Notes: a model not told the origin generated them from the sequence alone. A DNA stretch of 64,000 nucleotides from an uncultured Gemmatimonadales bacterium (GCA_964619975.1 CAZUIY010000042.1:278-64277), one strand, 5' to 3'; counted from the first letter of the stretch, positions 2-64,000 are shown. Made by a program: numbers and translations.

Positions 2-3000
2 TCACCCCAGCAAGTCAACGTCGAATCGGTAATCAAGGCGATTACCAAAAGGTGGAAGAACGCGCCTGATGTGGTCATCGTTCAAGACATGAACGACAAG
101 GCTATTCCTGAAGCAGTCCGGGCGGAGAATCAGCGCCAGCTATCGCAAGGGGCAATCGGGGAACCTGAAGGCTTCATTGCCGGGAACAAGGTTTATCTCG
201 TCGCATCACAGCTAAAGACTCCCGGCGATGTGACTCGGGTACTCCTGCATGAATCGCTTGGACACTTCGGCCTTCGCGGAGTATTCGGCCAGGAACTAAA
301 CACCGTATTGAAACAGGTCGCCGCGCTGCGACGCAGTGACATAGAAGCCAAGGCCAAGCAGTACGGGCTTGATGTTTCCAAGGAAACGGACCGGCTGATA
401 GCGGCAGAAGAAGTGCTAGCTGAGTTATCTCAAAATCAACCAAGGAATAACTTGGTTCAACGCGCCATAGCTGTAATACGCGCATGGCTGCGTAACAACA
501 TTCCAGGCTTTGAAAACCTGAAGCTATCCGACGCGGAAATAATAGAAGGAATCCTGAACCCCGCAAGGCGGTTCGTGCAGAAAGGAAGGGTGATAAACGC
601 GCGAGCTAAAGAGGCGGCATTTTCCCGAAATCAAACGACGACGACAGCGTTTAAGAAGTGGTTTGAGGATAGCAAGGTGGTTGATGCGAACGGGAAGCCC
701 ATGATTATGTACCATGGCACAAGTTCCGACTTTGCCAAGTTCGATAACGATGTTGATACCAAGGGCTCCATGGGTAACAGCGTCGGGTTCTATTTCTCAG
801 CCTCGATAGAAGCCGCGAACGACTACGGCAGCGAAGGGCAAGTAATGCCTGTTTATCTGAGAATTAAAAACCCCCTACGTATTGATAGTCGCATGGTCAA
901 CCACGATGCGATTGGAGATATGATCGGACTCAACTTGAGTAAAGTTTACGGAGCACCAGAGCGAGCGGAGGTGTATTGGTTCTTTAAGAACGGTGGGGCG
1001 TACGACGGAAGGAAGGAGGCGCGTGTTGGGGATGCAGTAGTTGCCGCAGCTAAAGCAAAAGGTTACGACGGCGCTATTTTCAAAGAGCGCATTGGCGGCA
1101 AGACAGTAGACGTTTATCTTGCCTTCGATGCGGAACAAATCAAGTCCGCAACCGGCAATCAAGGCACGTTCGACCCAAACAATCCCGATATTCGCTTTTC
1201 CCGTACGACACCCTCATCAACCCCCACCCCTTTCCGCGAACGCTTCGACAAAATCGCAGACTCCCTGATCTATAACTTTCAAGACCGCTTCAAGCCCTTA
1301 AAGGACATTCAAAAGCGCGCTGGTCCCGTATCCGAGGACGCGGACGCCGCCCTTGCCGAAGAACGCTATTCCGGCACGGTACGCGCTCGCCTCGATACCT
1401 TTAACGACTCCATGCGTGATCCTCTCCTGAAGGCCATCCATGACTCGGGGGTGGAATACGAGAAAGTCGAGGAATATCTCCATGCCCTGCACGCGCCCAG
1501 CCGCAACCGGGCAATGCAGGAAATCAATCCGACCGAATCCGAACTCAAGGCACAAGTAGCTGCACTGGAAAAGCAGCGCGATACGCTGACCAATGATCCG
1601 GGCGTGAAGCGCTTCCTCGATCAACGCAGAAAACTGCGGCAGGCCGAGGCCGACATTGAGGACGGCATAGCGGACGAATCGCTGGCGTCCGTCATCAGAA
1701 ACGAGATAGCCAGATTGAGGAAAGAGCGCAGCGTCAAGGACTACGCCGATACGATAGACCGGCTCAAAGCCTTGCGCCTCGTCAAACCCTTTGAAGGTGA
1801 CAACACAGCCCTGTCGGGCATGAGCGATGCGAAAGCAAGGCAGGTGATTGCCGAGGCTGAGAAGAGCGGCAAACGTGCGGCTCTGGATAAAATCTCCGGG
1901 ATCATCAACCAGATCACGGCCAGGACACGGGAAATCTACGTGGAAGGCGGACTGGAAAAGGCGGACGCTATCGAAGCATGGAACCGCAAATATGAAAACT
2001 ATGTGCCGCTGCACCGGGAGGAAGTCTCCGGAAACGGCATGCCAAGAGTGGGGCAGGGCTTCAACATCAAGGGCAAAGAGTCCAAACGGGCGACCGGATC
2101 AACCAGGGAAGTTCAGAACATTCTTGCGCATGTGGTGGCGCAGCATGAAGCCGCAATCGTCCGGTCTGAAAAGGCAAGGGTGGATCGCGCCTTGTTCCAG
2201 TTCGCCACACTGAATCCAGACCCGTCGCTTTGGACACTGGACAATGCGCCGATGCTGAGAACAGTCGATCCTGTCTCAGGATTCGTGGTGGAGCGAGTCG
2301 ATCCCACATACAAGAACCGGGATGAAGTGCTGACGCTCAAGATCGACGGTGAAGAGCATACCATCACCTTCAACGAGCAGAATCAGGAAGCGATGAGGCT
2401 TGCCGCTTCCATGAAGAACCTCTCATCGACCGACATGGGCGAAGTCACCCAAATGGTGGGGCGCTTCACCCGGTTCCTTGCCACGATGAACACCACGGCC
2501 AATCCGGTATTCGTGGCGCGGAACTTCATGCGTGACTTGCAAACCGCCTACGTCAACCTGTCCGATACCGAGATTGCCGGGAAGAAGCGGGAAGTGTTCC
2601 GGAACATTCCGGACGCCATCCGGGGCATGTGGAATCTGTCCCGAGGAAAGAAGAGTTCCAAATGGGCCAAGTACGCGCAGGAGTTCAAGGCCGCAGGTGG
2701 ACAAACCGGATGGATGGAACATTACAAGGACATTGGCACTCGCGCAGATGCTTTGAAGAAGGAACTTGCCACCATGCAACCAGGCAAGCTCAACGCATCG
2801 CGCCGTGCGCTAAAGTCGTGGTGGGGAATCATCGAGGACGCCAACAACGCAGTCGAGAACGGGGCGCGGCTGTCTGCCTATGTCGCTGCCAGGCAGTCTG
2901 GACTATCAGAAGGCAAGGCCGCATCGATTGCCAAGAACTTGACCGTCAACTTCAATGCCCGTGGGGCCAAGTCTGTCGAACTCAATGCCTGGTTCATGTT

Positions 3001-4078
3001 CATGAACGCTTCCATTCAGGGAAGTGCTCGACTCATAAAGGCCATGAACAGCCGTCAGGTGCGGAAGATCGTGGCTGGGGTGGTGCTGTCCGGTTTCCTG
3101 ATGGATATACTCGCCCGGGCAATGGCAGGGGATGACGATGAGGACGGAGAGAACGATTACGACCAACTGCCAGAACACACCAAGGCCATGAACTTTGTTT
3201 TCATGGTGGACGGGCAACCAGTCACAATCCCGATGCCCTATGGCTACAACTTCTTTGCCAGCGCGGGACGCAAAATGTCGGAAATGATTTTCCGCGAGAA
3301 CTACAGCCCGGTCAGGAGTGCTGTGGATCTGGCTGCTGTATTCGTGGATGCCTTCAGCCCGACCGGACAGGCGGGATCGGCGCTTCAATTCGTGGCCCCA
3401 ACAATTGCCGACCCTGCTGTTCAATGGGCGGAAAACAAGAACTTCGCGGGCAACCCACTGAGGCGCGAACAGCATCCTTTCGGTGTGCCGAATCCCGAAT
3501 ACCAGATGGGATTCAAATCGACCAGCGCTCCGGCGAAATGGCTGGCCGAATCGTTGAACACCGCATCGGGTGGGAACGAGGTTCGGCCGGGATTCGTCAA
3601 CGTCAATCCTGCATTCTTTGACTTCGCAGTATCGAGCATTGCCGGAGGCGCGGGAAGAACCTATCTGCAAGTGGCAAGCGGCCCCTTGAAAGCTACCGGG
3701 GATGACAAGATACAGGCGCGTGAGGTTCCATTCCTCAATATCTTCGTGGGCGCCCGTCCTGAATATCAGACGGAACGCAAATACTTCGAGGCCGTGCGCG
3801 AAGTCGAAATGGCACAGAAGGAACTGAAGACCTACCGGGAAAAGGGCGACATTGACATGGTGCGCCGCATCCGGGAAGAACACCGGGCAGCGCTGCGGCT
3901 CATCGAAGCGGAGAAGGAAGCCAAGCGCATTCTGTCAAACCTTCGACGCCGTGACCTGGCGCTTGACAAGGTGGGACTTGAAAACAAGGGACAGTTGAGG
4001 CGGGAGATAGAAGAGAAGCGCCGGGAAGTCATGGCGCGGTTCAACAGGCAATACCGGGAAGCAATGAACGTACAGTAG
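2..4078 (+). CDS. 3' part (at least 1358 codons) of a giant multidomain polyvalent-type protein; 5' end outside the window
   Basis: Frame 2 is open from nt 2, with no stop before the tabulated M at 71. It carries the motif VLLHESLGHFGLRGVFG (HEx3H, metallopeptidase-like). An ART-like block follows: MIMYHGTSSDFAKFD..SVGFYFSASIEAANDYG..PVYLRIKNPL. After that come about 950 aa of helical sequence with hydrophobic segments and a basic coiled-coil tail. All overlapping antisense ORFs are much shorter. Confidence 0.8.
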   Translation, partial: SPQQVNVESVIKAITKRWKNAPDVVIVQDMNDKAIPEAVRAENQRQLSQGAIGEPEGFIAGNKVYLVASQLKTPGDVTRVLLHESLGHFGLRGVFGQELNTVLKQVAALRRSDIEAKAKQYGLDVSKETDRLIAAEEVLAELSQNQPRNNLVQRAIAVIRAWLRNNIPGFENLKLSDAEIIEGILNPARRFVQKGRVINARAKEAAFSRNQTTTTAFKKWFEDSKVVDANGKPMIMYHGTSSDFAKFDNDVDTKGSMGNSVGFYFSASIEAANDYGSEGQVMPVYLRIKNPLRIDSRMVNHDAIGDMIGLNLSKVYGAPERAEVYWFFKNGGAYDGRKEARVGDAVVAAAKAKGYDGAIFKERIGGKTVDVYLAFDAEQIKSATGNQGTFDPNNPDIRFSRTTPSSTPTPFRERFDKIADSLIYNFQDRFKPLKDIQKRAGPVSEDADAALAEERYSGTVRARLDTFNDSMRDPLLKAIHDSGVEYEKVEEYLHALHAPSRNRAMQEINPTESELKAQVAALEKQRDTLTNDPGVKRFLDQRRKLRQAEADIEDGIADESLASVIRNEIARLRKERSVKDYADTIDRLKALRLVKPFEGDNTALSGMSDAKARQVIAEAEKSGKRAALDKISGIINQITARTREIYVEGGLEKADAIEAWNRKYENYVPLHREEVSGNGMPRVGQGFNIKGKESKRATGSTREVQNILAHVVAQHEAAIVRSEKARVDRALFQFATLNPDPSLWTLDNAPMLRTVDPVSGFVVERVDPTYKNRDEVLTLKIDGEEHTITFNEQNQEAMRLAASMKNLSSTDMGEVTQMVGRFTRFLATMNTTANPVFVARNFMRDLQTAYVNLSDTEIAGKKREVFRNIPDAIRGMWNLSRGKKSSKWAKYAQEFKAAGGQTGWMEHYKDIGTRADALKKELATMQPGKLNASRRALKSWWGIIEDANNAVENGARLSAYVAARQSGLSEGKAASIAKNLTVNFNARGAKSVELNAWFMFMNASIQGSARLIKAMNSRQVRKIVAGVVLSGFLMDILARAMAGDDDEDGENDYDQLPEHTKAMNFVFMVDGQPVTIPMPYGYNFFASAGRKMSEMIFRENYSPVRSAVDLAAVFVDAFSPTGQAGSALQFVAPTIADPAVQWAENKNFAGNPLRREQHPFGVPNPEYQMGFKSTSAPAKWLAESLNTASGGNEVRPGFVNVNPAFFDFAVSSIAGGAGRTYLQVASGPLKATGDDKIQAREVPFLNIFVGARPEYQTERKYFEAVREVEMAQKELKTYREKGDIDMVRRIREEHRAALRLIEAEKEAKRILSNLRRRDLALDKVGLENKGQLRREIEEKRREVMARFNRQYREAMNVQ

Positions 4079-53532: not shown

Positions 53533-53766
53533 ATGCGCGTTGGGCCGGACCTCGAACTGATATGGCATCAGAACGAAGTGGGAACAGGGGCAGGCGGAGT
53601 ATGGCATGCGATGCAGGCCGACGTTTGCACCGAGGACGGCCAGCAACTTGCAAAGCTTGACGTGTGTAACGGGCGCTATCGCATCTTTGCCTGCGGCCTG
53701 TCCGATTGGGACAGGAGAAGGCTTACGTCCAAGCTTGCCGCTTTTGACTTGGAGGAATACCAGTGA
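53533..53766 (+). CDS. Hypothetical protein (77 aa)
   Basis: It has an internal ATG, and its stop overlaps the next GTG start. Confidence 0.35.
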   Translation: MRVGPDLELIWHQNEVGTGAGGVWHAMQADVCTEDGQQLAKLDVCNGRYRIFACGLSDWDRRRLTSKLAAFDLEEYQ

Positions 53767-55799
53767 CGGGCTTCAGGATTGCCGGTTTTTCTGGCCTTGT
53801 GCCAAGGATGGCGCGGCAACTGCTCGCGCCGAATCAAGCGCAGGTCGCAACCAACTGCAACCTCACTTCCGGCGACTTGCGCTCAAGGAACGGGCCTCGG
53901 CTGGTGTTCAAGCCGGTAGTCGATGGCGATATCCAGTCAATGTTCCGGATGGAAAAGGACGGCCAGGAAAAATGGCTGGCATGGAACCGGGACGTGGACG
54001 TGGCGCGCTCGCCCATTGCAGATAACGTGGACAGGCGATTCTATTACACCGGCGATGGTGAGCCTCGGGTATCGAACTTCGATGTATCGACACAGGGCAG
54101 CGGCCCCTATCCGTCCGGCTGCTACGTGCTGGGCGTATCCCCTCCCATCGTCAAGCCAACTGTCTCTGCTTCGGGCGGGGCCAGCGCCACGACGGTGACA
54201 AGGGTGTACGCCTATACGTTCGTTACCCCGTGGGATGAGGAATCCGCGCCTTCGCCGCCTTCTACCCCAACAAGTGGGAAGATCGACGCCACATGGAGCC
54301 TGTCCGGGCTGGCCGTGCCGCCGGTCAACAGCGGGACAATTTCCGGGGCGCTGCGGAACATGCCGACGGCGGGCTACGTGACAATCACGATGGATACGGT
54401 CTACGGCCTGCGAGAGCATGAGGAAATCCGCTTTGCCGGAATCGTTGGCATGACGGATCTGAATGGCGCATTCCCGATTCACAGTGTGGACACAACCGCC
54501 AAGACGATCACGGTCAACCTCTTCACCGCGCAGATTTACACCTCTGGCGGTACGTGGGAGCGGACCGCGCCCCACAACACGGGCGGGATGACAAAGCGCG
54601 TGTACCGCCTGGCGACTTCGGAATCCGGAGACGAATACCATTATGTCGTCACCCTGTCGGATTCCGTGACAACCTTCAGCGACACGGTGACGGACGCAAA
54701 CCTGGGGGGCGTCATGCCCTCGACAAAGTGGCTTATGCCGCCTGCCGACCTTCGCGGAATCGTCATCCTGCCAAACGGCATAGCGGCTGGGTTCACCAAT
54801 AACAATATCCATTTCTCTGAACCGTTCAAGCCCTACGCATGGCCTGAAGGATATATCCAGGCATACGACCAGGACATTGTTGCCATAGGCGTGACGGGTA
54901 CTACGCTCGTGGGCCTCACGGAAGGCAACCCGTTCACCATCACGGGCGTGGAACCTCTGACGATGGGCGGCGGCATGGAAAAGCTCGCCGTCGCATGGCC
55001 GTGCATGGCAAAGCGTTCGGTGGCCAGTTTCGCCTTTGGCGTGGCTTATGCCGCGCCGCAAGGGTTGGTCATCATCGGCGCCCAGAATGACGTGGTGACC
55101 AAAGACCTGTTCACGCAGAAGGAATGGAGTGACCTGACGCCGACAAACTTCATCGCGGCAACCGCTGACAACCGCTATTACGCGGGCTATTCGGCCAACC
55201 AAAGTTCGATGATGTTTGTGATCGACAAGACCGAAGCCGCGAGTTTCGTCACCATCAACCAGAAAATATCCGCAATCTGGACGGACCCGGCAACGGGCAA
55301 GCTCTATGTCGCCATTGATGGCGACATTTACGAGTGGGAAGGCGATGCGGGTGTGCGGATCCCGTACGAATGGAAAAGCAAGCTTTTCCTGCTGCCCTCG
55401 CCGGTCAACTACGGGGCGGCGAAGATCGATGTGGACTTTGGAATATTCGGAACCGGATCGACGGTGACGAGCCAGGAATCCCTGGATGCAATCATTGCTG
55501 GCAATGAAGCAATCATTACGGCGGGAGAAACAAATGACGCGATGGCCGAACCCATGATTGCGGAATACGAGATAGGCGGGGATGCCATGCAACCGCTGCC
55601 CGGGCTATCTGCCGATACGCTGCAATTCCAGTTATGGGCCGGGGGGACTCTCAAGCACTCGCAGAAGATCACCAGCTCACGCGCTTTCCGCCTGCCGTCA
55701 GGTTACAAGACCGACAACGTGGAAGTAATCCTTGCCGGGAACGTGCGGGTATCGGGCGTCGTGCTGGCTGAAACGATGGATGGACTGAAGCAACTTTAA
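53763..55799 (+). CDS. Large virion structural (tail) protein, 678 aa
   Basis: The call rests on size and position. A 551-aa antisense ORF is judged a shadow. Confidence 0.55.
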   Translation: MTGFRIAGFSGLVPRMARQLLAPNQAQVATNCNLTSGDLRSRNGPRLVFKPVVDGDIQSMFRMEKDGQEKWLAWNRDVDVARSPIADNVDRRFYYTGDGEPRVSNFDVSTQGSGPYPSGCYVLGVSPPIVKPTVSASGGASATTVTRVYAYTFVTPWDEESAPSPPSTPTSGKIDATWSLSGLAVPPVNSGTISGALRNMPTAGYVTITMDTVYGLREHEEIRFAGIVGMTDLNGAFPIHSVDTTAKTITVNLFTAQIYTSGGTWERTAPHNTGGMTKRVYRLATSESGDEYHYVVTLSDSVTTFSDTVTDANLGGVMPSTKWLMPPADLRGIVILPNGIAAGFTNNNIHFSEPFKPYAWPEGYIQAYDQDIVAIGVTGTTLVGLTEGNPFTITGVEPLTMGGGMEKLAVAWPCMAKRSVASFAFGVAYAAPQGLVIIGAQNDVVTKDLFTQKEWSDLTPTNFIAATADNRYYAGYSANQSSMMFVIDKTEAASFVTINQKISAIWTDPATGKLYVAIDGDIYEWEGDAGVRIPYEWKSKLFLLPSPVNYGAAKIDVDFGIFGTGSTVTSQESLDAIIAGNEAIITAGETNDAMAEPMIAEYEIGGDAMQPLPGLSADTLQFQLWAGGTLKHSQKITSSRAFRLPSGYKTDNVEVILAGNVRVSGVVLAETMDGLKQL

Positions 55800-56204: not shown

Positions 56205-56630
56205 TTGAAAGTGGCGAAAAGATACTACATTTGCGACATCATAGGCGACGGCACGGACTCCATGCCAACCCCCACGACAGGCCCATATCGACCATCTATT
56301 GCAGATCTCGGGGTGTCCTGGGTCGGGAGCATTCCATCCGATCCGGAAACCGGGAGTCCGCTCCATAGCTGGACGCTCGTGTTAGTCAACACGGACAACC
56401 ACACCAGGGTTCTGTCCGCAAAAGGGGTTGATGCTCTGCCCGATTTTCCACTGGACGGAAAAATCAACGCAATTAACAACGTAACCCGGAATGCCATGCT
56501 CGGGAAACTCGGGGCAAGAGGAATTGACACGTCATTTATCGGGAACGCGGATGGATACCGCGAGGTTATCCGTGGCATCGGCAAAAAGCTGGACGTCGCA
56601 TTCGACGAGAATAACTTCGACGTAGCCTGA
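56205..56630 (+). CDS. Hypothetical virion protein (141 aa)
   Basis: It has a GTG start after GGAGGA. Confidence 0.45.
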   Translation: MKVAKRYYICDIIGDGTDSMPTPTTGPYRPSIADLGVSWVGSIPSDPETGSPLHSWTLVLVNTDNHTRVLSAKGVDALPDFPLDGKINAINNVTRNAMLGKLGARGIDTSFIGNADGYREVIRGIGKKLDVAFDENNFDVA

Positions 56631-58285
56631 TGGCACAGTTTGCGTCGGACACGTTCACCGGAACCGACGGCACCGCACTTCAAGCCTATAGCGCGGACTG
56701 GACGCGTCACACCAGCTACTCCGTTAACAGCGTCATCATCGGCAACCGTGCGATATGTCTCGCTAGCGGTGGCAGTGCATACTGGCATTCAGGCTCCCCC
56801 GCGTCTGCGGACTACAGCGTATCGTGTGACATATACGTTGCTGAATATTCGCCGAGTTTTTCGTATGCTGGCGTAATTGGTCGATCCAGCACTGCGGCGA
56901 ATACGTTCTATCACGCCAGGCACGGCGTAGGCGCGGGCTGGCAACTCTATCGTGCCGTTGCTGGCGCTTTTACCCTGCTCGGGAGTGCGGCAGGGCCGCT
57001 CACGGCAGGGAGCACGTACGCCCTCAAGCTCGACATGTCGGGCAGTACTATCAAGATGTTCGTCGATGGTGTGGCTCTCGCGACAGCGAATGATACACAG
57101 ATCACGGCAGCGGGGAAACCGGGAATACGGTTTTCTAACAACAGCGCGATCCTCGGAACTGATGGGCTGCATCTTGACAACTTCAGCGCGGATGAAGCGG
57201 GGGCGGGGGCGCATGATTTAACCATTGCCAATGCCTCTCAAGGCAACGTTGTTGCAAACGGCACTGTAACCCAAACCCATGCGCTGACCATTTCCAGTGC
57301 GGCACAAGGCAATTCCGTGTCAACCGGATCACTGGTTCAGGTTCACGCACTGGCAATCGCCAATACGACACAAGCCAACCTTGTCGATGACGTTGCAATC
57401 GGGGTAGGGGCAGCGTCCGATCTTGATATTGCCAATGCGACGCAAACCAACACCGCTGGCGCTGGTGGGGTAACACAGGAACACATACTTTCCTGGGAAA
57501 GCAGCACGCAGCAGAACGCTGCCAGCACACCGGCAATCAGCCAGACACATGCGCTGACTGTCCCGAATCTCACGCAACCGAATAGCGCATCGGACGGGGC
57601 AATAACACAGTCTCATGCGCTTGTCGGTGCAAACGCAGTGCAAGCGAATCCAGCAAGCCCCGGATCAGTTGCGGTTGGCGGTTCTGGCGACCTGATCGTA
57701 TCGGCCTCGATCCAGGCCAACACGTCAAGTACCGGGGCGATTGAACAGACTCACATTCTGGTCATATCCGCGACGGTACAGGACAACGCCGGCGAGTCTG
57801 TCACCGTCACACAGGTTCATCCCCTCACGGCTGAAGACCTCGCGCAAGGCAATGTTCTCAGCGACGGGGAAGTAATCAGTTTCGGGGATCTGGTAGCAGG
57901 CAACCCGGTACAGCAAAACAGCCTTTCAAACTCGTACGTCACCACGACGCAGACGCTCGCGATTGCCAGCGCGGAACAGGACAATCGCGCAAGCAGCGGG
58001 GCAATCATCCCGGGGGAGATATTCGAGGAATCGGTATCCGCTTCTTCATCTGCGGCGACCCTTGGCGCAATCAAGAAGCCGGGGATTCCAGGCGACACGG
58101 CGAAGTGGCTGCGGACCATGCTTGAAATCATCATCGGGCGCAGGAACAACAAGATCACGGTCCCAAAACGGCAAACCCTGACGTTCTCATCACCGCCGAC
58201 AAAGGCGGAATGCGAGGCGCTTTACAGCTACGTCAACGCCGTGCGGGAATCCCATGAACAGATAGTAAACAGACTGGATTCATGA
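56630..58285 (+). CDS. Tail fibre/spike-like protein: N-terminal ConA/LamG-like domain plus about twelve ~22-aa tandem repeats
   Basis: The LamG-like block reads YALKLDMSGSTIKMFVDGV. The repeat consensus is roughly H-A-L-x-I-x-x-A-x-Q-x-N-x(6-8)-T-Q-x, spanning aa 195 to about 460. Confidence 0.6.
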   Translation: MAQFASDTFTGTDGTALQAYSADWTRHTSYSVNSVIIGNRAICLASGGSAYWHSGSPASADYSVSCDIYVAEYSPSFSYAGVIGRSSTAANTFYHARHGVGAGWQLYRAVAGAFTLLGSAAGPLTAGSTYALKLDMSGSTIKMFVDGVALATANDTQITAAGKPGIRFSNNSAILGTDGLHLDNFSADEAGAGAHDLTIANASQGNVVANGTVTQTHALTISSAAQGNSVSTGSLVQVHALAIANTTQANLVDDVAIGVGAASDLDIANATQTNTAGAGGVTQEHILSWESSTQQNAASTPAISQTHALTVPNLTQPNSASDGAITQSHALVGANAVQANPASPGSVAVGGSGDLIVSASIQANTSSTGAIEQTHILVISATVQDNAGESVTVTQVHPLTAEDLAQGNVLSDGEVISFGDLVAGNPVQQNSLSNSYVTTTQTLAIASAEQDNRASSGAIIPGEIFEESVSASSSAATLGAIKKPGIPGDTAKWLRTMLEIIIGRRNNKITVPKRQTLTFSSPPTKAECEALYSYVNAVRESHEQIVNRLDS

Positions 58286-58917
58286 CAAACAGATACCTGT
58301 ACAAACTCCTTGATGCAAATATCGGATACCCGCTTACGCACGAGTTGGCGCTCAGTATCATGCGGGTGGCGTCCATGCTTGAGCCGCTTGTGGAGCCTGA
58401 AAACATCGGGCAAATCATCCCGGCAGAGCATGAGGGATTCGTTTTTGCCGTGGAACGCATGGATGCCATAGAAGGCGAGATGCGGCCCCTGCATCTGGCG
58501 CACTGGGGGGAAACGGAAGAACACCGGCATGGCCTGCCATTCAATCCGGATTACACCACGTTCATCCGGTATGAGGCGGCGGGGCGATACGTCCTTTTCA
58601 CGATACGGGAGAAGGGGCGGCTCGTGGGCAACTGTGCCATGTATCTTGATAGAAGCACACACACGCAAACGCTGATTGCCACCGAGGATACGCTGTACCT
58701 GTTGCCACAAGCCCGGAGGGGAACGGTCGCAAAAAGGTTTATCGAATACTGCGAGGCGGCATTGAAAAGCCTGGGCGTGAAGGAAATAAGCGTAAGCGTG
58801 AAGACGGTCAACCGGGCCGGACTGTTCTTCCAGAGGATGGGTTATCGCCATGTGGAAAACGGATTAACGAAAGTATTGGAGGAAAAAAATGTGCGCACCG
58901 AAAGCTCCGAAGCCTGA
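58282..58917 (+). CDS. GNAT-family N-acetyltransferase
   Basis: The acetyl-CoA motif-A-like block reads LLPQARRGTVAKRFIEYCEAALKSLGVKEISVS. The C-terminal part reads FFQRMGY. Confidence 0.7.
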   Translation: MTNRYLYKLLDANIGYPLTHELALSIMRVASMLEPLVEPENIGQIIPAEHEGFVFAVERMDAIEGEMRPLHLAHWGETEEHRHGLPFNPDYTTFIRYEAAGRYVLFTIREKGRLVGNCAMYLDRSTHTQTLIATEDTLYLLPQARRGTVAKRFIEYCEAALKSLGVKEISVSVKTVNRAGLFFQRMGYRHVENGLTKVLEEKNVRTESSEA

Positions 58918-59713
58918 TCCCGCGATTGGTCAGGCGGCATTATCCAATGCCGAACTTGCAAAGGAACAAACTGCTGTAGCTCGGGAACAGTTGGCCTGGG
59001 AGAAGGAGAGGGCCAACCGGCAGGACCCGCTGGTCGAGAAGATCGTCAACCAGCAAATTGCATCTGGTGACGAGAATGCCGCTCGCGCTGCGGAACAGTG
59101 GAACATCTACCAGAACCTTTTCCGTCCTGTCGAGGAAAGGATGGTATCCGACGCGATGGGCTTTGACTCCGAAGAACGCAAAGAGCGCATGGCGGCGGAA
59201 GCTGCATTGGACGTAACCCGGGGATATGCCGCTGCACAGGACCAGAATGCGCGCACCCTGGGAGCGATGGGCATAAACCCCAACTCCGGGCGGTTCGCGG
59301 GGCTTGCCAATGAGACGGCATTGATGCAGGCAAAGGACACGGCGGGTGCCATGAACCGGGCAAGGCGCGGCACAGAAATGCAGGGCATAGCCTTGAGGAC
59401 TGGGGCTGCGCAATTCGGGCGGAACATGCCCAACACGGGGATCGCGGCGGACAGCCTGGTACTCAACTCGGGTAATTCCGCCGTAGGAAACCTTGCCACA
59501 AACTCGCAAATGCACAACGCCAACAATGCGGCGGCTGCGCAATGGTTCGGGGGCGCAATGCAGGGCAACCAGTCGGCCGGGGGGTTGCTTAACAACCTGT
59601 ACGGAAATCAACTGGCGGGATACCAGACCCAGGCGGGGATCACGAGTGGGGCCATGCAGGGAATTGGAAGCCTTGTCGGTGGGCTTGGTACTGCCGGAAT
59701 ACTGGCTTTCTGA
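58889..59713 (+). CDS. Gly/Ala/Asn/Gln-rich putative internal virion (ejection) protein
   Basis: It has a strong SD, is 274 aa, and has a low-complexity C-terminus ending in a hydrophobic segment. Confidence 0.4.
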   Translation: MCAPKAPKPDPAIGQAALSNAELAKEQTAVAREQLAWEKERANRQDPLVEKIVNQQIASGDENAARAAEQWNIYQNLFRPVEERMVSDAMGFDSEERKERMAAEAALDVTRGYAAAQDQNARTLGAMGINPNSGRFAGLANETALMQAKDTAGAMNRARRGTEMQGIALRTGAAQFGRNMPNTGIAADSLVLNSGNSAVGNLATNSQMHNANNAAAAQWFGGAMQGNQSAGGLLNNLYGNQLAGYQTQAGITSGAMQGIGSLVGGLGTAGILAF

Positions 59714-60402
59714 TGCGCGTACTCGCATTCTCCGGCGGCAAGGATTCCATGGCATGCCTTCATCTCTGCAAGCGCAGCATCGACTGTGCAATCTATGTTG
59801 ACACCGGCAAATCCTATCCAGAAACGCAAATGATGGTGAAGTACGCGGAAACAATCGTGCCGTTCGTAATCGTTCATAGCGATCAAGAAGAACAAAACAG
59901 AGTCAACGGACTGCCATCCGATGTTGTTCCAATCGATTACACAGCATTGGGTCAAGTGATAAGCGGCGCAAAGCCTGTCATGATCCAGAGTTATCTGGAT
60001 TGCCACTTCCAAAACATCAGTTATCCCCTGTTTACCAAGGCCAAAGAACTCGGGGCGACTCATATTCTATACGGACAAAGGAGCAGTGATTCGCATCAGG
60101 CACCAGCCAGGAATGGCGACATAATCGACGAGATTGTGAGACTGCATCCGGTCGAAGGCTGGTCGGATCAGGACGTGCTTGACTACCTGCAAACCGTGAT
60201 GGACGTGCCAGAGCATTACTACCTCGGGCATTCATCAATGGACTGTTACGACTGCACGGCATTCAGGAATGAAACGCAGGATCGGATGGAATACACGAAG
60301 GAAAGATATCCGAATTTCCACAGAAAATATCAGGAACGAATGGACATGATCAGGCAGGCGCTTGAGATGAGCGGATACTTGGAGAAAAGACATGGCACTT
60401 AA
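59713..60402 (+). CDS. PAPS-reductase-family PP-loop ATP pyrophosphatase
   Basis: The N-terminal PP-loop reads LAFSGGKDSMACLHL. It is 229 aa. Confidence 0.78.
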   Translation: MRVLAFSGGKDSMACLHLCKRSIDCAIYVDTGKSYPETQMMVKYAETIVPFVIVHSDQEEQNRVNGLPSDVVPIDYTALGQVISGAKPVMIQSYLDCHFQNISYPLFTKAKELGATHILYGQRSSDSHQAPARNGDIIDEIVRLHPVEGWSDQDVLDYLQTVMDVPEHYYLGHSSMDCYDCTAFRNETQDRMEYTKERYPNFHRKYQERMDMIRQALEMSGYLEKRHGT

Positions 60403-62278
60403 CGCGGTTGGCGGTCTCGCGCAGGGATTGGCGCAAGGAATCGACATGGGCATGCGCTGGCACGGACTGAACCAGAGTATCGGGCTTCAAAAACAGCGGC
60501 AGGAACGGCTTGAGAAACGAGATGAGCGCGACGCCGAAATCCATGAAATGAAGAAAGATCAGTTTGCGTCGGAGAAGGAAATCAGGGATCGCAGGAACAA
60601 CGCGCTCAATGAAATTGCTCAATATACTCAGTCGATCATGGGCGGAGGCCCGCAGCCACAACAGCAGCCGAATATCAACGTGGCCGGACCCATTCCCGCT
60701 GGAGGGATTGGTGGCGCAACACAAATGACACCCGACAGCGGGAGTCTTGCGCCTGCCGCGTCACAAGCGGCACAGGCCCAGGCTCCACAAGCGCAGGAAC
60801 AATCCATTCCGCCTGGAAAGGTACTGGAACGCGGCATGGTAACGGGCATGTACTCCCCGAAAATGCTGACCGATATTGCCAGCATATGGGCCAAGCACGG
60901 CTTGCAGGAAGAGGGCATCAAATACATGAACCAGGCATATGAGGCCGAGAAGCGCGGCGGGGTTCGCGCATCAATGGCACTCATGCAGAACAACCCAGCC
61001 GCGGCTGCCAAAGCGTTGCAGGAAGGCGGAGTGGAGCTCGAAGGCGTGCCGGTCAAGGTCAATGATGATCCGAATGACTTTCGCTGGAAGCTCAACATCG
61101 CGGGACAGGGCGAGACAACGGCGGACGTGCGGCAATGGCTACGCTCCACCATGGACCCGGAAGAATTCTTCAGGGCTGAAGACAGAAGGATCAAGGACGA
61201 GCGGGAAGCGGCCATGGACGAGCGCAAGCAATCGTTCGCGGAACAGAAAGGCCGAGCGGAACTCGGTCTTGATGCGGCAAAGACGCAGGCGCAGATCGGA
61301 TACCTGAGAAGCCGCAGCCAGCTTGCAGAGGCCAACGCGGACAAGGCTGACCGCTGGGAGCCGGGGGCGCTGCGGCCAACCCGATCAAGCGAATCCCAGA
61401 TCAATACCGCGCTGACACGCCGGGAAAAGGCGTTCGACCGGGTGAGCATGGTAAAGGACGAATTTGGCGGCAAGCCCGAGGTCGACCCCATGAGGCGGCA
61501 AGTGCTGGACAGCGCAGCCAACCAGTATCAGGCATTCCTTGAGGATTTACGCGGGGAAGAACTGGACGCGCGGGATCACCACAAGTTTACTGACGTGATG
61601 GTGAGTTTTCCCGTGAACGGTACGCCGCAGCAGATAGCGAAATGGGAAGAGTCGCAACTGTTCCCTCGCTTCGGGCTGAAGAGAAAAGCAAAGGCGGCAA
61701 CCAAGGAAGATACTCCGCGCCAAGTCACTGCACCAGCTGGCGGACTCGCGCCTGCTTCAACACGCGCACCGGCTCCAAGAACAGGAGCGCTCTCATCCCT
61801 TGACCGTGACCGTGCAAGCGCGGCACTGAACAAGGAAATGGAAGGCGTACAGCGTGCGCTGAAAACACCTAACCTCAGCACCGAACAGCGCAAGACACTC
61901 TCATTGCAGGCGCAGGAAATCGCCAAGCGGCGGGATGCGCTGAAGAGAAAGAGAGGCCAATCATCTGACCCAGAATCAGAGCCTGTCCCTGATTACGGAT
62001 TACGACGAGATGGCAGCAAAAAAGGTACTGGATGGCTTGGCATCCAAAAAACCAAATCTGGTAGCGACATGACGGAATACACCGTTGGTTTGGAGATAAA
62101 CGGAAATGAGGTGGATGTTCCTACACTGGTGCCAACTTTGAATCAAAAAGAAATTGACTATCTGAAAACAGAGCCAGACCTGCGAGAAAGGAGCCAAATC
62201 AACGATTCAATCATAAGAAAAGCAAAAGAACATGCAGAGAAACGAATGCGAGAAGGAAAAAGCGTTTTCGCAGATTAA
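60392..62278 (+). CDS. Coiled-coil putative internal virion (ejection) protein, 628 aa
   Basis: It is charged and helical, with a Q/A/P-rich linker. It lies immediately before the giant ORF. Confidence 0.45.
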   Translation: MALNAVGGLAQGLAQGIDMGMRWHGLNQSIGLQKQRQERLEKRDERDAEIHEMKKDQFASEKEIRDRRNNALNEIAQYTQSIMGGGPQPQQQPNINVAGPIPAGGIGGATQMTPDSGSLAPAASQAAQAQAPQAQEQSIPPGKVLERGMVTGMYSPKMLTDIASIWAKHGLQEEGIKYMNQAYEAEKRGGVRASMALMQNNPAAAAKALQEGGVELEGVPVKVNDDPNDFRWKLNIAGQGETTADVRQWLRSTMDPEEFFRAEDRRIKDEREAAMDERKQSFAEQKGRAELGLDAAKTQAQIGYLRSRSQLAEANADKADRWEPGALRPTRSSESQINTALTRREKAFDRVSMVKDEFGGKPEVDPMRRQVLDSAANQYQAFLEDLRGEELDARDHHKFTDVMVSFPVNGTPQQIAKWEESQLFPRFGLKRKAKAATKEDTPRQVTAPAGGLAPASTRAPAPRTGALSSLDRDRASAALNKEMEGVQRALKTPNLSTEQRKTLSLQAQEIAKRRDALKRKRGQSSDPESEPVPDYGLRRDGSKKGTGWLGIQKTKSGSDMTEYTVGLEINGNEVDVPTLVPTLNQKEIDYLKTEPDLRERSQINDSIIRKAKEHAEKRMREGKSVFAD

Positions 62279-62287
62279 AGACACAGA

Positions 62288-64000
62288 ATGGATGAATTAA
62301 CCCTCGAAGAAGATGCTGGCGAACTTGTCGCCCCTCGTCCAAGACGCCAGAGGATGGACGCGCCCATGCCGCGCTCTCGGCCGCGCATGATCGAACTGGA
62401 CGACGACGCTGAAATGCGGCTGCGAGAGATAGCGCAGTCGATGCAGTCCTTCCAGCAGACTGCTCCTGCGGAAACCGCGCAGCCCGAGAAACCTCTCGGC
62501 CTCATGGGAACGATCCGGGAGGGCGCGAAAGGAACATTACGGGCGTTGGGCGCTACCGTGGACACGGCGCAAGGAGATGCGCAGGAAGTGGTGCGCGCCG
62601 CGCAGGATCAGGCAGACGCACCCAAAGACCCTGACCTTGAACGCTTCTATGCGCACATCGAGGAACGCAAGGCAGCGTTGGGAGAAGACCCGTCGCTTTG
62701 GGAAGGCATCAAGGCCGTAGGCGGGGCGGCAATAGATAACCCCCGCGGATTCGGCCTGATGATCGCGGAACAGTTGCCGAACTCGGGCGCAGCGCTGGGA
62801 GCGGCGGGGGCTGGCGCTTTGGCCGGATCATTCGCCGGACCCGTTGGCTCTGCTATCGGTGGATTGGCGGGGCTGGCGGCTGCGAACATCGGCTTGGAAA
62901 CCGGTCACAAGGCGCTGGAAGCGGCCGCCGATGGAGACTTCACGCCGAAAGAACAAAGCCGGGTGCGGCGCGAGGGATTAATCAAGGGCGGCGTCATTAC
63001 CGGGGTGGATGCGGCAACGTTGGGCGTGACCAAGTTCATCACCAACACCAGCCGCCGTGCCGTGGAACGCGCCACGATGAAGACGCTGGCCGATAACGGC
63101 GTGGACGTGACCAATGCGGCAGCACGTCGGGCTGCAATGGAAACACCAGAGATTGCCGAAGCCGTCACAGCAGCGCAAAGCATGGCACGTTCGGGAGCGG
63201 AAAGGCTTGGCAACCGGATAGCGCAGACCGGCGGGGCGATAGCGCTTGAAACCATCGGGGAGGGCGCGGGGGAATATCTCGGGGAACTAGCGGCGACCGG
63301 GCGCGCAAATGCGGTAGACGCCGTAATCGAGGGTTTCGCCGGATTCGGTACCAGCATCGGGGAAATAGCAACAGTCGGAGCGTTGAACCGGCGCGGATTG
63401 AACCGATTGCTGGACAGCCAGGAAGAAGCGCAGACACAGGCCGAAAAACAGACGCAGGACACCGGGGTGGAGCATGAGGCCATGCCATCTCCTACCGAGC
63501 CGGAAAAGTTCGTGGCCGTGCCGAAAGCGCGCTCTGTCTCCGGAATAGAGTTAACACGCGACGAGGAAGGAAACCTCAAGCCGGTCACGCCCGGCTCCAC
63601 GCAGACGGAGTTCAACCTTGCCAACCGGCCGGGTTTTCAGCAGGACGCTGAAACACGCAGGAGGGCGCGGGAAGAGGAACGCACGCGGGAGGAAGCGTAC
63701 AGGAAGAACCCCATAGTCGTGTCAAAGGACATGCCGCGCTCCATTGCTGGCCGTCCCGCAGCTGATCTCACGAATGAAGCGCTGGAATACACGGCGAAGA
63801 ACGGCGGCGCACGCGCCCGCCAGATCGCCATGGACGAGATTGCACGACGCAAGGCGCAAGGCACTCCTGTAGTCACGCCAGAGAAACCGGCGGAAAAGGT
63901 AAAAAGAATCATTGCTACCGGCGCGGAGAAGGCTCAGGAGGACGCCAGGAAGAATTCGATACTTCCATCCGTCCCGACTGCTCCGATTCAACCAGCGACT
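62288..64000 (+). CDS. 5' part (571 codons, open at the window edge) of a giant virion/polyvalent-type protein; not in the supplied ORF table
   Basis: I translated it by hand from the ATG at 62288 and found no stop through 64000, where the last codon ends. It has a Gly/Ala-rich hydrophobic segment (GAALGAAGAGALAGSFAGPVGSAIGGLAGLAAANIG). The antisense ORFs listed here are shadows. Confidence 0.7.
   Translation, partial: MDELTLEEDAGELVAPRPRRQRMDAPMPRSRPRMIELDDDAEMRLREIAQSMQSFQQTAPAETAQPEKPLGLMGTIREGAKGTLRALGATVDTAQGDAQEVVRAAQDQADAPKDPDLERFYAHIEERKAALGEDPSLWEGIKAVGGAAIDNPRGFGLMIAEQLPNSGAALGAAGAGALAGSFAGPVGSAIGGLAGLAAANIGLETGHKALEAAADGDFTPKEQSRVRREGLIKGGVITGVDAATLGVTKFITNTSRRAVERATMKTLADNGVDVTNAAARRAAMETPEIAEAVTAAQSMARSGAERLGNRIAQTGGAIALETIGEGAGEYLGELAATGRANAVDAVIEGFAGFGTSIGEIATVGALNRRGLNRLLDSQEEAQTQAEKQTQDTGVEHEAMPSPTEPEKFVAVPKARSVSGIELTRDEEGNLKPVTPGSTQTEFNLANRPGFQQDAETRRRAREEERTREEAYRKNPIVVSKDMPRSIAGRPAADLTNEALEYTAKNGGARARQIAMDEIARRKAQGTPVVTPEKPAEKVKRIIATGAEKAQEDARKNSILPSVPTAPIQPAT

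What the first reader, a model, noticed from the sequence alone, without database searches (positions are those of the whole stretch)
58282..60402. A GNAT acetyltransferase and a PAPS-reductase-family PP-loop enzyme are interleaved with ejection-protein-like genes
**Seen.**
- The fibre-like gene is followed, with overlapping stops and starts, by four genes before the giant ORF.
- These are a 211-aa GNAT (58282-58917), a Gly/Ala/Asn-rich 274-aa protein (58889-59713), a 229-aa SGGKDS PP-loop enzyme (59713-60402) and a 628-aa coiled-coil protein.

**Established knowledge.**
- This genome position in podovirus-like phages is normally occupied by internal virion proteins that are ejected into the host.
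- PAPS-reductase-family proteins in mobile elements are linked to sulfur or nucleotide-modification chemistry.
- GNATs can modify proteins, aminoglycosides or cell-wall and nucleotide-sugar substrates.

**Inference.**
- These enzymes may be packaged and co-injected, or may modify virion components or DNA.
- As a pair they could form a small, uncharacterised modification or anti-defence module.
Basis: partly seen in the sequence, partly recalled or inferred. Interest (0 to 1): 0.6.

Follow-up and report, generated by a model that had tools for sequence, protein, structure and literature searches.

The report
Enzymes flanking a phage ejection protein
Both enzyme genes are real, and the arrangement is already annotated in Bcep22-like phages, but they are not a fixed pair: across relatives the acetyltransferase type tracks the first residues of the DNA-ejection protein between them, and the optional "PAPS reductase" gene tracks how that protein ends.

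Summary
Five overlapping or closely spaced late-operon genes run GNAT, 274-aa virion/ejection protein, PP-loop enzyme, 628-aa protein and a giant ORF. The giant ORF wraps the ends of a circular 65.5-kb contig and encodes a 2,444-aa polyvalent protein.

The same gene order is annotated in Burkholderia Bcep22/JC1 and Ralstonia GP4. JC1 virion proteomics found the neighbouring proteins but neither enzyme.

The enzymes are not an obligate pair.
- **PP-loop as anchor:** 80 of 89 relatives carrying the PP-loop gene have a GNAT two genes upstream.
- **GNAT as anchor:** only 26 of 52 (Bcep22-type GNAT) and 1 of 21 (window-type GNAT) carry the PP-loop gene.

Each enzyme co-varies with one end of the protein between them.
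- **N-terminus:** Bcep22-type GNATs precede proteins starting MGK. The unrelated window-type GNAT precedes MC (here MCAPKAPKPDP). One natural swap replaces exactly the GNAT gene plus about 10 codons.
- **C-terminus:** where the PP-loop gene is present, the protein ends in a bare hydrophobic tail (111 of 111). Where it is absent, an auto-cleaving Peptidase_S74 domain or another ending usually follows.

The PP-loop enzyme has a canonical ATP-binding loop and iron-sulfur cysteines but no catalytic cysteine tail, so it is probably not a sulfate reductase. The chemistry of both enzymes remains inferred.

The parts
53763..55799 (+). 678-aa internal virion protein, the counterpart of Bcep22 gp67. It marks the start of the ejection-gene block.
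   Evidence: PHROG 511 'internal virion protein' at 1.2e-146. 31-34% identity to Bcep22 gp67 and its GP4 counterpart.
56630..58285 (+). 551-aa fibre-like protein whose stop overlaps the GNAT start (ATGA).
   Evidence: ORF, junction. No family hit. Close relatives have a protein of 507-568 aa in the same position.
58282..58917 (+). GNAT acyl/acetyl-transferase of the window type ('gnatB'). It has a conserved ~90-residue N-terminal extension.
   Evidence: - Pfam Acetyltransf_7/1/10 above cut-off; PHROG 1249.
- AlphaFold2 pLDDT 87.6. Foldseek finds a generic GNAT fold: AAC(3)-I, NatD, Ard1, RimI.
- CoA-binding motif RRGTVA is conserved.
- Not specifically related to Bcep22 gp69-type GNATs (hhalign probability 5.6%).
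58878..58882 (+). Shine-Dalgarno GGAGG, 6 nt upstream of the ATG at 58889. It fixes the start of the ejection protein as Met-Cys.
   Evidence: Sequence read.
58889..59713 (+). 274-aa virion/ejection protein. The N-terminus is MCAPKAPKPDP. The C-terminus is an uncharged Gly/Ala-rich tail, ...GGLGTAGILAF.
   Evidence: - PHROG 8003 at 3.6e-86.
- 37-40% identity to Bcep22 gp70 and the GP4 virion-associated protein.
- The JC1 homologue gp64 was detected in virions.
- Terminal sequences.
59713..60402 (+). 229-aa PP-loop enzyme of the PAPS-reductase family. It carries SGGKDS, DTG..PE, C97/H98 and C178xxC181, and has no C-terminal catalytic cysteine tail.
   Evidence: - Pfam PF01507 at 1.6e-12; PHROG 424.
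- Alignments A1 and A4.
- AlphaFold2 pLDDT 95.1. Foldseek's best matches are CysH/APS reductases at TM about 0.5.
- Far below the NCBIfam cut-offs for CysH/APS reductase.
60392..62278 (+). 628-aa protein with no family match. It occupies the position of Bcep22 gp74 and JC1 gp68, which are virion-associated.
   Evidence: No Pfam, PHROG, NCBIfam or PADLOC hit. Position. Relatives have a 502-539-aa protein here.
62288..64000 (+). N-terminal part of the 2,444-aa polyvalent giant protein, which continues across the circular contig junction.
   Evidence: 141-bp terminal overlap of the contig. Continuous reading frame. Domains ddrB-ParB, ART-PolyVal and LPD38.
2..4078 (+). C-terminal part of the same giant protein.
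   Evidence: About 25% identity to the C-terminal part of the GP4 giant 'DarB-like' protein.

Best explanation
The window holds the ejection-protein block of a Bcep22-like short-tailed phage. Its core is a 274-aa virion/ejection protein flanked by two phage enzymes that are not themselves virion components.

**(1) GNAT acts on the N-terminus (inferred; about 0.6 on its own).**
- The upstream GNAT probably acts on the extreme N-terminus of the ejection protein during late infection.
- After removal of the initiator methionine, this protein exposes Cys2. Relatives with the other GNAT type expose Gly2-Lys3.
- The GNAT would acetylate or acylate that end. Whether the group is acetyl or a longer acyl chain is unknown.

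**(2) The PP-loop enzyme is optional and is not a sulfate reductase (about 0.85 for 'not a reductase').**
- It is an accessory gene placed directly after the ejection-protein gene.
- It keeps a canonical ATP-pyrophosphatase loop and iron-sulfur-type cysteines, and lacks the catalytic cysteine tail.
- It most likely adenylates some substrate with ATP.
- Its presence is tied to the ejection protein ending in a bare hydrophobic tail. Relatives without it usually carry an auto-cleaving Peptidase_S74 chaperone domain, or another ending, at that point. That association is shown.
- Whether the enzyme works on that C-terminus or its assembly (about 0.3), or on DNA or nucleotides (about 0.35), is not resolved.
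For: **Cassette identity.** The gene order matches Bcep22 gp69/70/73/74/75 and GP4. Identity is 35-40% for the ejection protein and the PP-loop enzyme. Three independent ~65-kb relatives share the order.

**GNAT and N-terminus.**
- 130 of 143 proteins following a Bcep22-type GNAT start with MG, 126 of them MGK. The rest mostly start M[T/S/P/A]K.
- 39 of 48 proteins following a window-type GNAT start with MC; two more have MC at a second in-frame ATG.
- No mixed case was seen.
- The two GNAT types are not specifically related.
- On a tree of the ejection-protein body, GNAT type switches at least 4-5 times. Residue 2 follows in 4 of 4 independent contrasts.
- L015 and L016 are about 85% identical on both flanks. 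They differ by a block made of the GNAT gene plus the first ~10 codons of the next gene (MCFHSPKAPD against MGKNSPSPPP).
- A strong ribosome-binding site fixes the MC start in the window.

**PP-loop chemistry.** SGGKDS is invariant, the cysteines form CC...CxxC, and there is no cysteine tail. Scores are 24.8-26.8 bits against NCBIfam cut-offs of 154-235.

**PP-loop gene is optional.** It is present in 26 of 52 and 1 of 21 GNAT-anchored loci, as a clean insertion/deletion.

**C-terminal association.**
- 111 of 111 proteins followed by a PP-loop gene end in the tail.
- Of the 52 without it, 35 have a long extension and 8 a short charged end. One further row has a 13-residue end.
- 8 rows end in uncharged or tail-like residues.
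- The extension is Peptidase_S74 in Parlo, PBC5, PEp14, CF418P1 and L209.
- PP-loop presence changes 16-22 times on the tree, and the C-terminal state follows in about 16 of 16 contrasts (p about 3e-5).

**Not packaged.** JC1 virion proteomics.

**Late-operon embedding.** Overlapping genes and no plus-strand promoter in a consensus scan.
Against: - No chemistry was observed. Every functional link rests on co-variation of physically adjacent DNA, so shared recombination cassettes could produce the pattern without any function.
- Only four independent GNAT-type contrasts exist, and their sign test cannot reach 0.05.
- Bcep22 and Serratia phage Parlo keep a GNAT although their ejection proteins begin with a ~55-residue transmembrane extension instead of MGK.
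- 8 of the 52 proteins without a PP-loop gene lack both a long extension and a charged end. L191, L248, L245 and L192 end in uncharged or tail-like residues (SSGFAT, FKGLFG, FKGLFG, GTFKF), and L252, L255, L261 and L259 in short Pro/Lys/Arg-containing ends. The PP-loop enzyme is therefore not a strict stand-in for the S74 domain.
- A late, facultative PP-loop/Fe-S enzyme related to DndC, SspD and BrxP fits a DNA-directed anti-defence role equally well.
- The window's enzyme has His in place of the second cluster cysteine.
Confidence: 0.55

Rival explanations
1. The two enzymes are unrelated accessory genes sitting at recombination hot spots beside the ejection-protein gene. The PP-loop/Fe-S enzyme would be a DndC/SspD/BrxP-like, DNA- or nucleotide-directed modification or anti-defence enzyme that acts on progeny DNA late in infection. 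The GNAT would acetylate a host protein or small molecule.
For: - The PP-loop gene is present or absent among genomes that are otherwise about 85% identical, as is typical of accessory anti-defence genes.
- Its PP-loop region matches the PADLOC models BrxP (4.4e-6) and SspD.
- Phage PAPS reductases are reported in variable anti-defence regions, and one promotes evasion of host Dnd (PMC13551039 citing Piel 2022).
- Neither enzyme was found in JC1 virions.
Against: - The PP-loop gene almost always occupies this one slot (80 of 89 loci) and tracks the C-terminal state of the neighbouring protein.
- The PADLOC matches cover only the first ~60 residues, and no DndC model matched.
- GNAT type and residue 2 of the next protein switch together, including a swap of the GNAT gene plus 10 codons. 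A host-directed GNAT does not explain that.
Confidence: 0.3
2. One reading: both enzymes are packed into the capsid and injected with the DNA, like the cargo of polyvalent or Dar-type proteins.
For: - They lie among genes for virion-associated and ejected proteins, next to a polyvalent protein with ddrB-ParB, ART and LPD38 domains.
- Iyer et al. 2017 note stand-alone GNATs among late structural genes and GNAT domains inside polyvalent proteins.
Against: - JC1 virion proteomics detected the flanking proteins but not gp63 or gp65.
- The Bcep22 record marks the neighbours, but not these two, as virion-associated.
- Most relatives with the cassette have no giant protein at all.
Confidence: 0.1
3. 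The published reading: both are 'moron' or auxiliary metabolic genes that benefit the lysogen. The enzyme would be a true PAPS reductase for sulfate assimilation, and the GNAT a RimL-like acetyltransferase acting on host ribosomes or gene regulation.
For: Proposed in the JC1 and CSP3 papers from domain names.
Against: - The enzyme has no catalytic cysteine tail and a canonical ATP-binding loop, and falls far below the CysH/APS-reductase family cut-offs.
- The genes are translationally coupled inside the late operon, with no promoter or terminator of their own in a consensus scan.
- Both co-vary with the neighbouring structural protein.
Confidence: 0.05

Closest known systems
Bcep22-like phage late cassette: Burkholderia Bcep22 gp69 (acyl-CoA N-acyltransferase), gp70 (virion protein), gp73 (PAPS reductase-like), gp74, gp75 (giant 'DarB-like'). 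Also JC1 gp63-gp69 and Ralstonia GP4.
   Same: - Same gene order, on one strand, after the tail genes.
- The ejection protein is 35-40% identical and the PP-loop enzyme 35-37% identical.
- The ejection protein ends in the same ...MAF-type tail.
- A giant polyvalent protein lies downstream.
   Different: - The GNAT here belongs to an unrelated clade (211 aa against about 145 aa; hhalign probability 5.6%).
- The ejection protein starts MC instead of MGG (GP4) or a transmembrane extension (Bcep22).
- A fibre-like gene sits directly upstream.
- The giant protein is half the size.
- The element also carries conjugation genes.
Assimilatory APS/PAPS reductases (CysH) and the PAPS-reductase-like DNA phosphorothioation enzymes DndC, SspD and BrxP
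   Same: - Pfam PF01507 fold.
- DTG..PE and GQR..E..S..R motifs.
- The CC...CxxC cysteine pattern of APS reductase.
- Best structural matches are CysH/APS reductases.
   Different: - No C-terminal ECG[LI]H-type catalytic cysteine.
- A canonical SGGKDS ATP loop. From my own knowledge, this loop is degenerate in CysH and canonical in DndC and CysD.
- Only 229 aa, with none of the extra domains of DndC, BrxP or SspD.
- Far below the curated cut-offs.
N-terminal protein acyl/acetyl-transferases of the GNAT fold: RimI/RimJ/RimL, NatD, and N-myristoyltransferase acting on MG... viral entry proteins (picornavirus VP4, reovirus mu1). The viral examples are from my own knowledge.
   Same: - GNAT fold. 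NatD and Ard1/RimI are among the best structural matches.
- The putative substrate has a small residue 2 exposed after methionine removal, and sits in a protein thought to breach the host envelope.
   Different: - A single small GNAT domain, not the double domain of N-myristoyltransferase.
- Residue 2 is Cys here.
- No modification has been observed, and the acyl donor is unknown.
Peptidase_S74 C-terminal intramolecular chaperone domains of endosialidases and tail spikes or fibres
   Same: In relatives without the PP-loop gene (Parlo, PBC5, PEp14, CF418P1, L209-type), this domain follows the hydrophobic tail directly. Its self-cleavage would leave the same ...MAF-type end that is the encoded end here.
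   Different: The window's protein has no S74 domain. A separate PP-loop enzyme gene occupies the corresponding position.
Phage P1 Dar system and phage-type polyvalent proteins (Iyer et al. 2017)
   Same: The downstream giant protein has ddrB-ParB, ART-PolyVal and LPD38 domains, which are listed as specific to phage-type polyvalent proteins.
   Different: - The GNAT and PP-loop enzymes are separate genes.
- They were not detected in virions of a cultured relative.
- They occur in most relatives without any giant protein.

Membership tests
GNAT acyl-CoA N-acyltransferase superfamily | Profile match above the curated cut-off | tested here: met
   Acetyltransf_7 32.1 bits (cut-off 27), Acetyltransf_1 28.5 (20.7), Acetyltransf_10 27.6 (23.6).
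GNAT acyl-CoA N-acyltransferase superfamily | GNAT fold with the CoA pyrophosphate-binding motif R/Q-x-x-G-x-G/A | tested here: met
   AlphaFold2 pLDDT 87.6. 763 PDB matches at E<=0.001, and the top 50 listed are GNATs. R145, G147 and A150 (RRGTVA) are invariant or nearly so.
GNAT acyl-CoA N-acyltransferase superfamily | Acyl transfer from acyl-CoA to an amine | not testable with these tools
   Needs an enzyme assay or mass spectrometry.
Bcep22 gp69-type GNAT ('gnatA') | Specific sequence relationship to gp69 and its GP4 counterpart | tested here: not met
   No tblastn hit. No overlap between the hits of the two HMMs. hhalign probability 5.6%.
Assimilatory (P)APS reductase (CysH) | PAPS_reduct domain | tested here: met
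   PF01507, 48.2 bits against a cut-off of 22.5.
Assimilatory (P)APS reductase (CysH) | Catalytic cysteine in a flexible C-terminal ECG[LI]H-type tail (from my own knowledge of the family) | tested here: not met
   The last cysteine is C181. The C-terminus is ...ALEMSGYLEKRHGT. No conserved cysteine after the CxxC in 39 relatives.
Assimilatory (P)APS reductase (CysH) | Score above the curated equivalog or subfamily cut-offs | tested here: not met
   PRK02090 26.8 bits against 154. TIGR02055 24.8 against 235. TIGR00434 17.6 against 165.
PP-loop ATP pyrophosphatases | SGGxDS motif at the N-terminus of a Rossmann-like fold | tested here: met
   SGGKDS at residues 7-12, invariant in 39 sequences. 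Strand-loop-helix in the model.
Fe-S PP-loop or APS-reductase-type cluster site | CC...CxxC or three conserved cysteines | tested here: inconclusive
   C97, C178 and C181 are invariant. Position 98 is Cys in at least 90% of relatives but His in the window. Cluster binding was not testable.
DndC / SspD / BrxP (DNA phosphorothioation) | Full-length profile match | tested here: not met
   Only residues 2-62 match BrxP (23.2 bits) and SspD (16.3 bits). No DndC hit.
DndC / SspD / BrxP (DNA phosphorothioation) | Partner genes (cysteine desulfurase, DndD/E or SspB/C) nearby | not tested
   Only some ORFs of the element were scanned. None of the roughly 30 scanned is such a partner.
Bcep22-like ejection cassette | Order: modifier gene, PHROG 8003/6121 protein, (PP-loop gene), ~500-aa protein, large protein, on one strand after the tail genes | tested here: met
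Virion-packaged (Dar/polyvalent-type) cargo | Protein detected in purified virions | not testable with these tools
   For homologues, JC1 mass spectrometry was negative for gp63 and gp65.

The most novel reading that the evidence does not exclude
A phage DNA-ejection protein has each of its two ends serviced by a dedicated phage enzyme.
- **N-terminus:** interchangeable enzymes would cap or lipidate the exposed Gly or Cys. The candidates are two unrelated GNAT clades, or PHROG 21390. This would be analogous to myristoylated entry proteins of animal viruses.
- **C-terminus:** an ATP-dependent iron-sulfur PP-loop enzyme would activate or process the free hydrophobic end, or assist its assembly. 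It would do in trans what an auto-cleaving S74 chaperone domain does in cis in sister phages.
Probability: 0.15. Interest if true: 0.85.

Novelty: new variant of a known kind. Interest (0 to 1): 0.55.

Why it matters
The GNAT and 'PAPS reductase' genes of Bcep22-like phages have been annotated since 2011 and are described in the literature as morons or metabolic genes.

The comparative data here argue against that. They show two regularities.
- The type of the upstream enzyme predicts the first residues of the ejection protein.
- The presence of the PP-loop gene predicts how that protein ends.

If the enzymes really modify the ejection protein, this would be a post-translational maturation step for a protein that breaches the host envelope. 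I found no description of such a step for phage ejection proteins in the searched literature. Mass spectrometry on existing cultured phages (JC1, GP4, Parlo, PBC5) could test it directly.

If the links are only recombination-cassette linkage, the finding reduces to one more member of a known cassette. Either way, the name 'PAPS reductase' is probably wrong for this family.

Tried and rejected
- **DNA similarity:** blastn of the 2.1-kb region against 50,697 phage records found nothing.
- **GNAT tblastn:** hit only distant Vibrio, Pseudomonas and metagenomic phage GNATs at 20-31% identity, in unrelated contexts. This led nowhere.
- **Gill et al. 2011 (PMC3187461):** the original Bcep22 paper is not held. 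Its virion data were taken only from the record's annotation and from the JC1 paper.
- **Dependence on the ddrB-ParB domain of the giant protein:** I considered that the PP-loop enzyme works with this domain, by analogy with ParB plus PAPS-reductase pairings. I rejected it because most relatives with the cassette have no giant ORF, and close relatives have giants without ddrB-ParB.
- **Autonomous moron with its own promoter and terminator:** rejected.
- **Strict functional replacement of the S74 domain by the PP-loop enzyme:** weakened. Of the 52 proteins without a PP-loop gene, 17 have no long extension: nine end in a short charged end and eight in uncharged or tail-like residues.
- **Technical dead ends:**
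  - The Bcep22-type GNAT alignment was too diverse for a collection scan, so I used a sub-alignment.
  - PADLOC gave only PP-loop-motif hits.
  - A literature search for acetyltransferases acting on ejection proteins found nothing relevant.

Full report
**What is there**

- Fibre-like protein, 551 aa: 56630-58285.
- GNAT, 211 aa: 58282-58917.
- 274-aa protein: 58889-59713.
- PP-loop enzyme, 229 aa, SGGKDS at residues 7-12: 59713-60402.
- 628-aa protein: 60392-62278.
- Giant ORF from 62288.

The junctions are ATGA, a 29-nt overlap, TGATG, an 11-nt overlap and a 9-nt gap. A consensus scan finds no plus-strand promoter between 53 and 64 kb, and terminator-like sites occur at the chance level. These genes therefore read as part of one late operon.

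Family assignments:
- The GNAT and PAPS_reduct Pfam matches pass their curated cut-offs.
- The 274-aa protein matches PHROG 8003, 'virion structural protein', at 3.6e-86.
- The 678-aa protein upstream matches PHROG 511, 'internal virion protein'.

The window is C42:278-64277 of a 72%-complete metagenome-assembled genome. C42 is 65,685 bp with a 141-bp terminal overlap, so it is a circular 65,544-bp element. The giant ORF runs across the junction to window 4078. It encodes 2,444 aa with ddrB-ParB, ART-PolyVal and LPD38 domains. That makes it a phage-type polyvalent protein in the sense of Iyer et al. 2017.

**The arrangement is already known**

The PP-loop protein is 35-37% identical to the 'PAPS reductase-like' proteins of Ralstonia GP4-like phages and Burkholderia Bcep22-like phages. 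In Bcep22 and GP4 the annotated order is:
1. acyl-CoA N-acyltransferase
2. virion-associated protein
3. PAPS reductase-like protein
4. virion-associated protein
5. giant 'DarB-like' protein

The 274-aa protein, the PP-loop enzyme, the 678-aa protein and the C-terminal part of the giant all have BLAST-level counterparts there. The GNAT and the 628-aa protein do not.

The JC1 paper calls the acetyltransferase and the PAPS reductase 'moron genes'. Its virion mass spectrometry detected gp64 (the protein between them), gp67, gp68 and gp69, but not gp63 or gp65 (PMC9144972). The CSP3 paper gives similar name-based guesses. Three independent ~65-kb metagenomic relatives have the same order as the window.

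**Do the two enzymes co-occur?**

Co-occurrence is asymmetric.

*Anchoring on the PP-loop gene.* I analysed 89 loci: 80 viral contigs, 7 bacterial genome loci and 2 cultured phages.
- 80 have a GNAT on the same strand with exactly one gene between them. The gap is 725-2,874 bp.
- 3 of the 9 others lack upstream sequence.
- L085 and L087 carry PHROG 21390 in that slot, and L083 carries PHROG 610.
- Of the 80 GNATs, 76 are of the Bcep22 gp69 type ('gnatA', about 135-190 aa, weak Acetyltransf_4/3 matches). Only 4 are of the window's type ('gnatB').
- The two types are not specifically related (hhalign probability 5.6%). Yet a prophage locus in Nitrosovibrio sp. Nv6 whose PP-loop enzyme is 60% identical to the window's has gnatA.

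*Anchoring on the GNATs.*
- Of gnatA loci with at least 3.5 kb downstream, 26 of 52 have the PP-loop gene.
- Of gnatB loci, 1 of 21 has it.
- Between genomes about 75-88% identical, the PP-loop gene is a clean insertion/deletion.
- Most relatives with the cassette have no giant ORF.

The two enzymes are therefore not an obligate pair, and the PP-loop enzyme does not depend on a polyvalent giant.

**GNAT type tracks the N-terminus of the next protein**

The ORF after a gnatA gene starts with MG in 130 of 143 cases, and 126 of those start MGK. The exceptions mostly start M[T/S/P/A]K. A few have an N-terminal extension.

The ORF after a gnatB gene starts with MC in 39 of 48 cases. Two more read MKTMC, where MC begins at a second ATG. 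No mixed case was seen. In the window the start MCAPKAPKPDP is fixed by a GGAGG 6 nt upstream.

All these second residues allow removal of the initiator methionine (from my own knowledge), which would expose Gly or Cys.

I checked whether this is more than shared descent.
- On a tree of the protein body (first 15 residues removed), GNAT type changes at least 4-5 times. Residue 2 follows in 4 of 4 independent contrasts. Four pairs cannot reach p<0.05.
- L015 (gnatB, MCFHSPKAPD...) and L016 (gnatA, MGKNSPSPPP...) are 85.7% and 83.3% identical over 3.3 kb upstream and 2.5 kb downstream. The replaced block is the GNAT gene plus the first ~10 codons of the next gene.

Cultured phages fit the pattern.
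- Rhizobium RHph_TM3_14A has gnatA followed by MGKPKAPKPPDY.
- Sinorhizobium PBC5 has an unannotated gnatA ORF followed by MGKGSSKAPSPDP.
- GP4 has MGGKGGG.

Anomalies: the proteins of Bcep22, Parlo and PEp14 start with a ~55-residue transmembrane extension. Bcep22 and Parlo nevertheless keep gnatA.

The GNAT model is confident (pLDDT 87.6), but its fold matches are generic. They include N-terminal acetyltransferases (NatD, Ard1, RimI) and AAC(3) enzymes. The inference that the GNAT modifies the N-terminus of the ejection protein is thus supported only by co-variation.

I tested both points independently here.

**The PP-loop enzyme**

The alignment of 39 relatives shows:
- invariant SGGKDS;
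- DTG..PE;
- a GQR..E..S..R loop;
- C97;
- C98 in at least 90% of relatives, but His in the window;
- C178xxC181.

There is no cysteine after the CxxC, and the protein ends ...LEKRHGT. The model is very confident (pLDDT 95.1). Its best structural neighbours are CysH/APS reductases at TM about 0.5, followed by TtuA, FAD synthase and LarE.

It falls far below the NCBIfam cut-offs for CysH/APS reductase. Only its first ~60 residues match the PADLOC BrxP and SspD models.

From my own knowledge of these families, sulfonucleotide reductases need a C-terminal catalytic cysteine and have a degenerate PP-loop. A canonical SGGxDS loop marks ATP pyrophosphatases that adenylate a substrate. Iron-sulfur clusters bound by three or four cysteines occur in the sulfur-inserting members. 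The name 'PAPS reductase' is therefore probably wrong. An ATP-dependent, possibly iron-sulfur-dependent activation reaction is the best chemical guess.

**PP-loop presence tracks the C-terminus of the same protein**

I classified 163 complete ejection proteins that had enough downstream sequence.

*With a PP-loop gene.* All 111 end within 3 residues of an uncharged Gly/Ala/Met-rich tail. Examples are ...AAMAYF and ...GIMAF. The window ends ...AGILAF.

*Without a PP-loop gene (52).*
- 35 continue into an extension of more than 20 residues; 33 of these exceed 60.
- 8 have a short charged end: ...MMMPK, ...IGRPR, ...IGRPK, ...IGRAR and ...FMRP.
- One more (L190) has a 13-residue end.
- 8 end in uncharged or tail-like residues. 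L191, L248, L245 and L192 end SSGFAT, FKGLFG, FKGLFG and GTFKF. L252, L255, L261 and L259 end in short Pro/Lys/Arg-containing stretches.

The long extension is a Peptidase_S74 domain ('chaperone of endosialidase') in the L209-type metagenomic phages and in Parlo, PBC5, PEp14 and CF418P1. In Parlo it begins directly after ...GMGLMAF. Its self-cleavage (family knowledge) would therefore leave the same end that is the encoded end in phages carrying the PP-loop gene.

On a tree built only from residues 16-215, PP-loop presence changes 16 times on supported branches and 22 times on all branches. The C-terminal state follows in about 16 of 16 contrasts (sign test p about 3e-5).

Caveat: the PP-loop gene directly abuts that C-terminus. 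Each switch may be a single cassette exchange, so linkage rather than function could explain much of the signal. The PP-less proteins with short or bare ends show that the enzyme is not a strict substitute for the S74 domain.

**Verdict**

- The arrangement is a known, annotated cassette. The window holds a variant with a different GNAT clade and a Cys2 ejection protein.
- 'Packaged and co-injected' and 'a two-enzyme module' are not supported.
- 'Modifies virion components' is the best-supported reading for the GNAT (about 0.6).
- For the PP-loop enzyme, a role at the ejection protein's C-terminus (about 0.3) and a DNA- or nucleotide-directed anti-defence role (about 0.35) remain open. The second is supported by its accessory behaviour and by literature on phage PAPS reductases and Dnd.
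- A sulfate-assimilation role is unlikely.

Noticed in passing
window 4642-21991: The same circular 65.5-kb contig carries a full conjugation gene set next to a complete phage late module.
- ParA-like protein.
- MobA/VirD2 relaxase with TraI_middle and LPD7 domains.
- TraG/VirD4 coupling protein.
- VirB10, VirB9, VirB6, VirB4 and VirB11 homologues.

It is either a candidate conjugative phage-plasmid or a chimeric assembly. It is already listed as a separate first-stage finding (e1-2780312).
   Followed up: partly
window 62288-64000 plus 2-4078; L268, L269: The giant polyvalent protein varies in domain content among ~65-kb relatives that share the rest of the cassette.
- This element: ddrB-ParB, ART-PolyVal and LPD38.
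- L268: ddrB-ParB, RadC and LPD38.
- L269: ART-PolyVal and LPD38.
   Followed up: partly
L085:691-1239, L087:8021-8488, L266:3020-3493 (Achromobacter phage CF418P1): In some relatives the slot upstream of the ejection-protein gene holds PHROG 21390 instead of a GNAT. This is a ~155-aa protein with an H[FVA]WDD(L)xD[KR]D motif. In CF418P1 the ejection protein then starts MGC.
   Followed up: partly
L267:2989-3483 (Sinorhizobium phage PBC5, NC_003324 positions 13559-14053): The gap annotated as intergenic between gp18 and gp19 encodes an unannotated Bcep22-type GNAT. It lies directly upstream of gp19, which starts MGKGSSKAPSPDP.
   Followed up: partly
L001:10955-11950 (Bcep22 gp70), L265:3333-4589 (Parlo gp078), L264:3327-4640 (PEp14 gp24): These ejection-protein homologues begin with a ~55-residue extension containing a transmembrane helix, followed by ...FKKGSS/FKKDAG..APxPDP, instead of MGK. 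This hints that the N-terminus is membrane-associated. It does not fit the simple model of a GNAT acting on Gly2.
   Followed up: no
window 58282-58560 (GNAT residues 1-93): The window-type GNAT has a conserved N-terminal extension with invariant H71, H74, W75, E77, T78, E79 and R82 (HxxHWxETExHRH). Its function is unknown. It might bind substrate or a metal.
   Followed up: no
window 60004-60006 (PP-loop residue 98): The window's PP-loop enzyme has His where at least 90% of relatives have the second cysteine of the CC pair. One ~65-kb relative (P0026) shares this.
   Followed up: no
L161 and other window-type-GNAT loci without a PP-loop gene; L263 (RHph_TM3_14A): A second kind of C-terminal extension follows the hydrophobic tail in these ejection proteins. 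It is about 100 aa, with the motif ...SNGEAVLNxEAVxLVGEDFIHRIN.... It has no Pfam match.
   Followed up: no
window 35205-37247 (minus strand): A 680-aa fusion of DUF3560 with a methyltransferase domain. It is the only DNA-modification-type gene I saw in the element.
   Followed up: no
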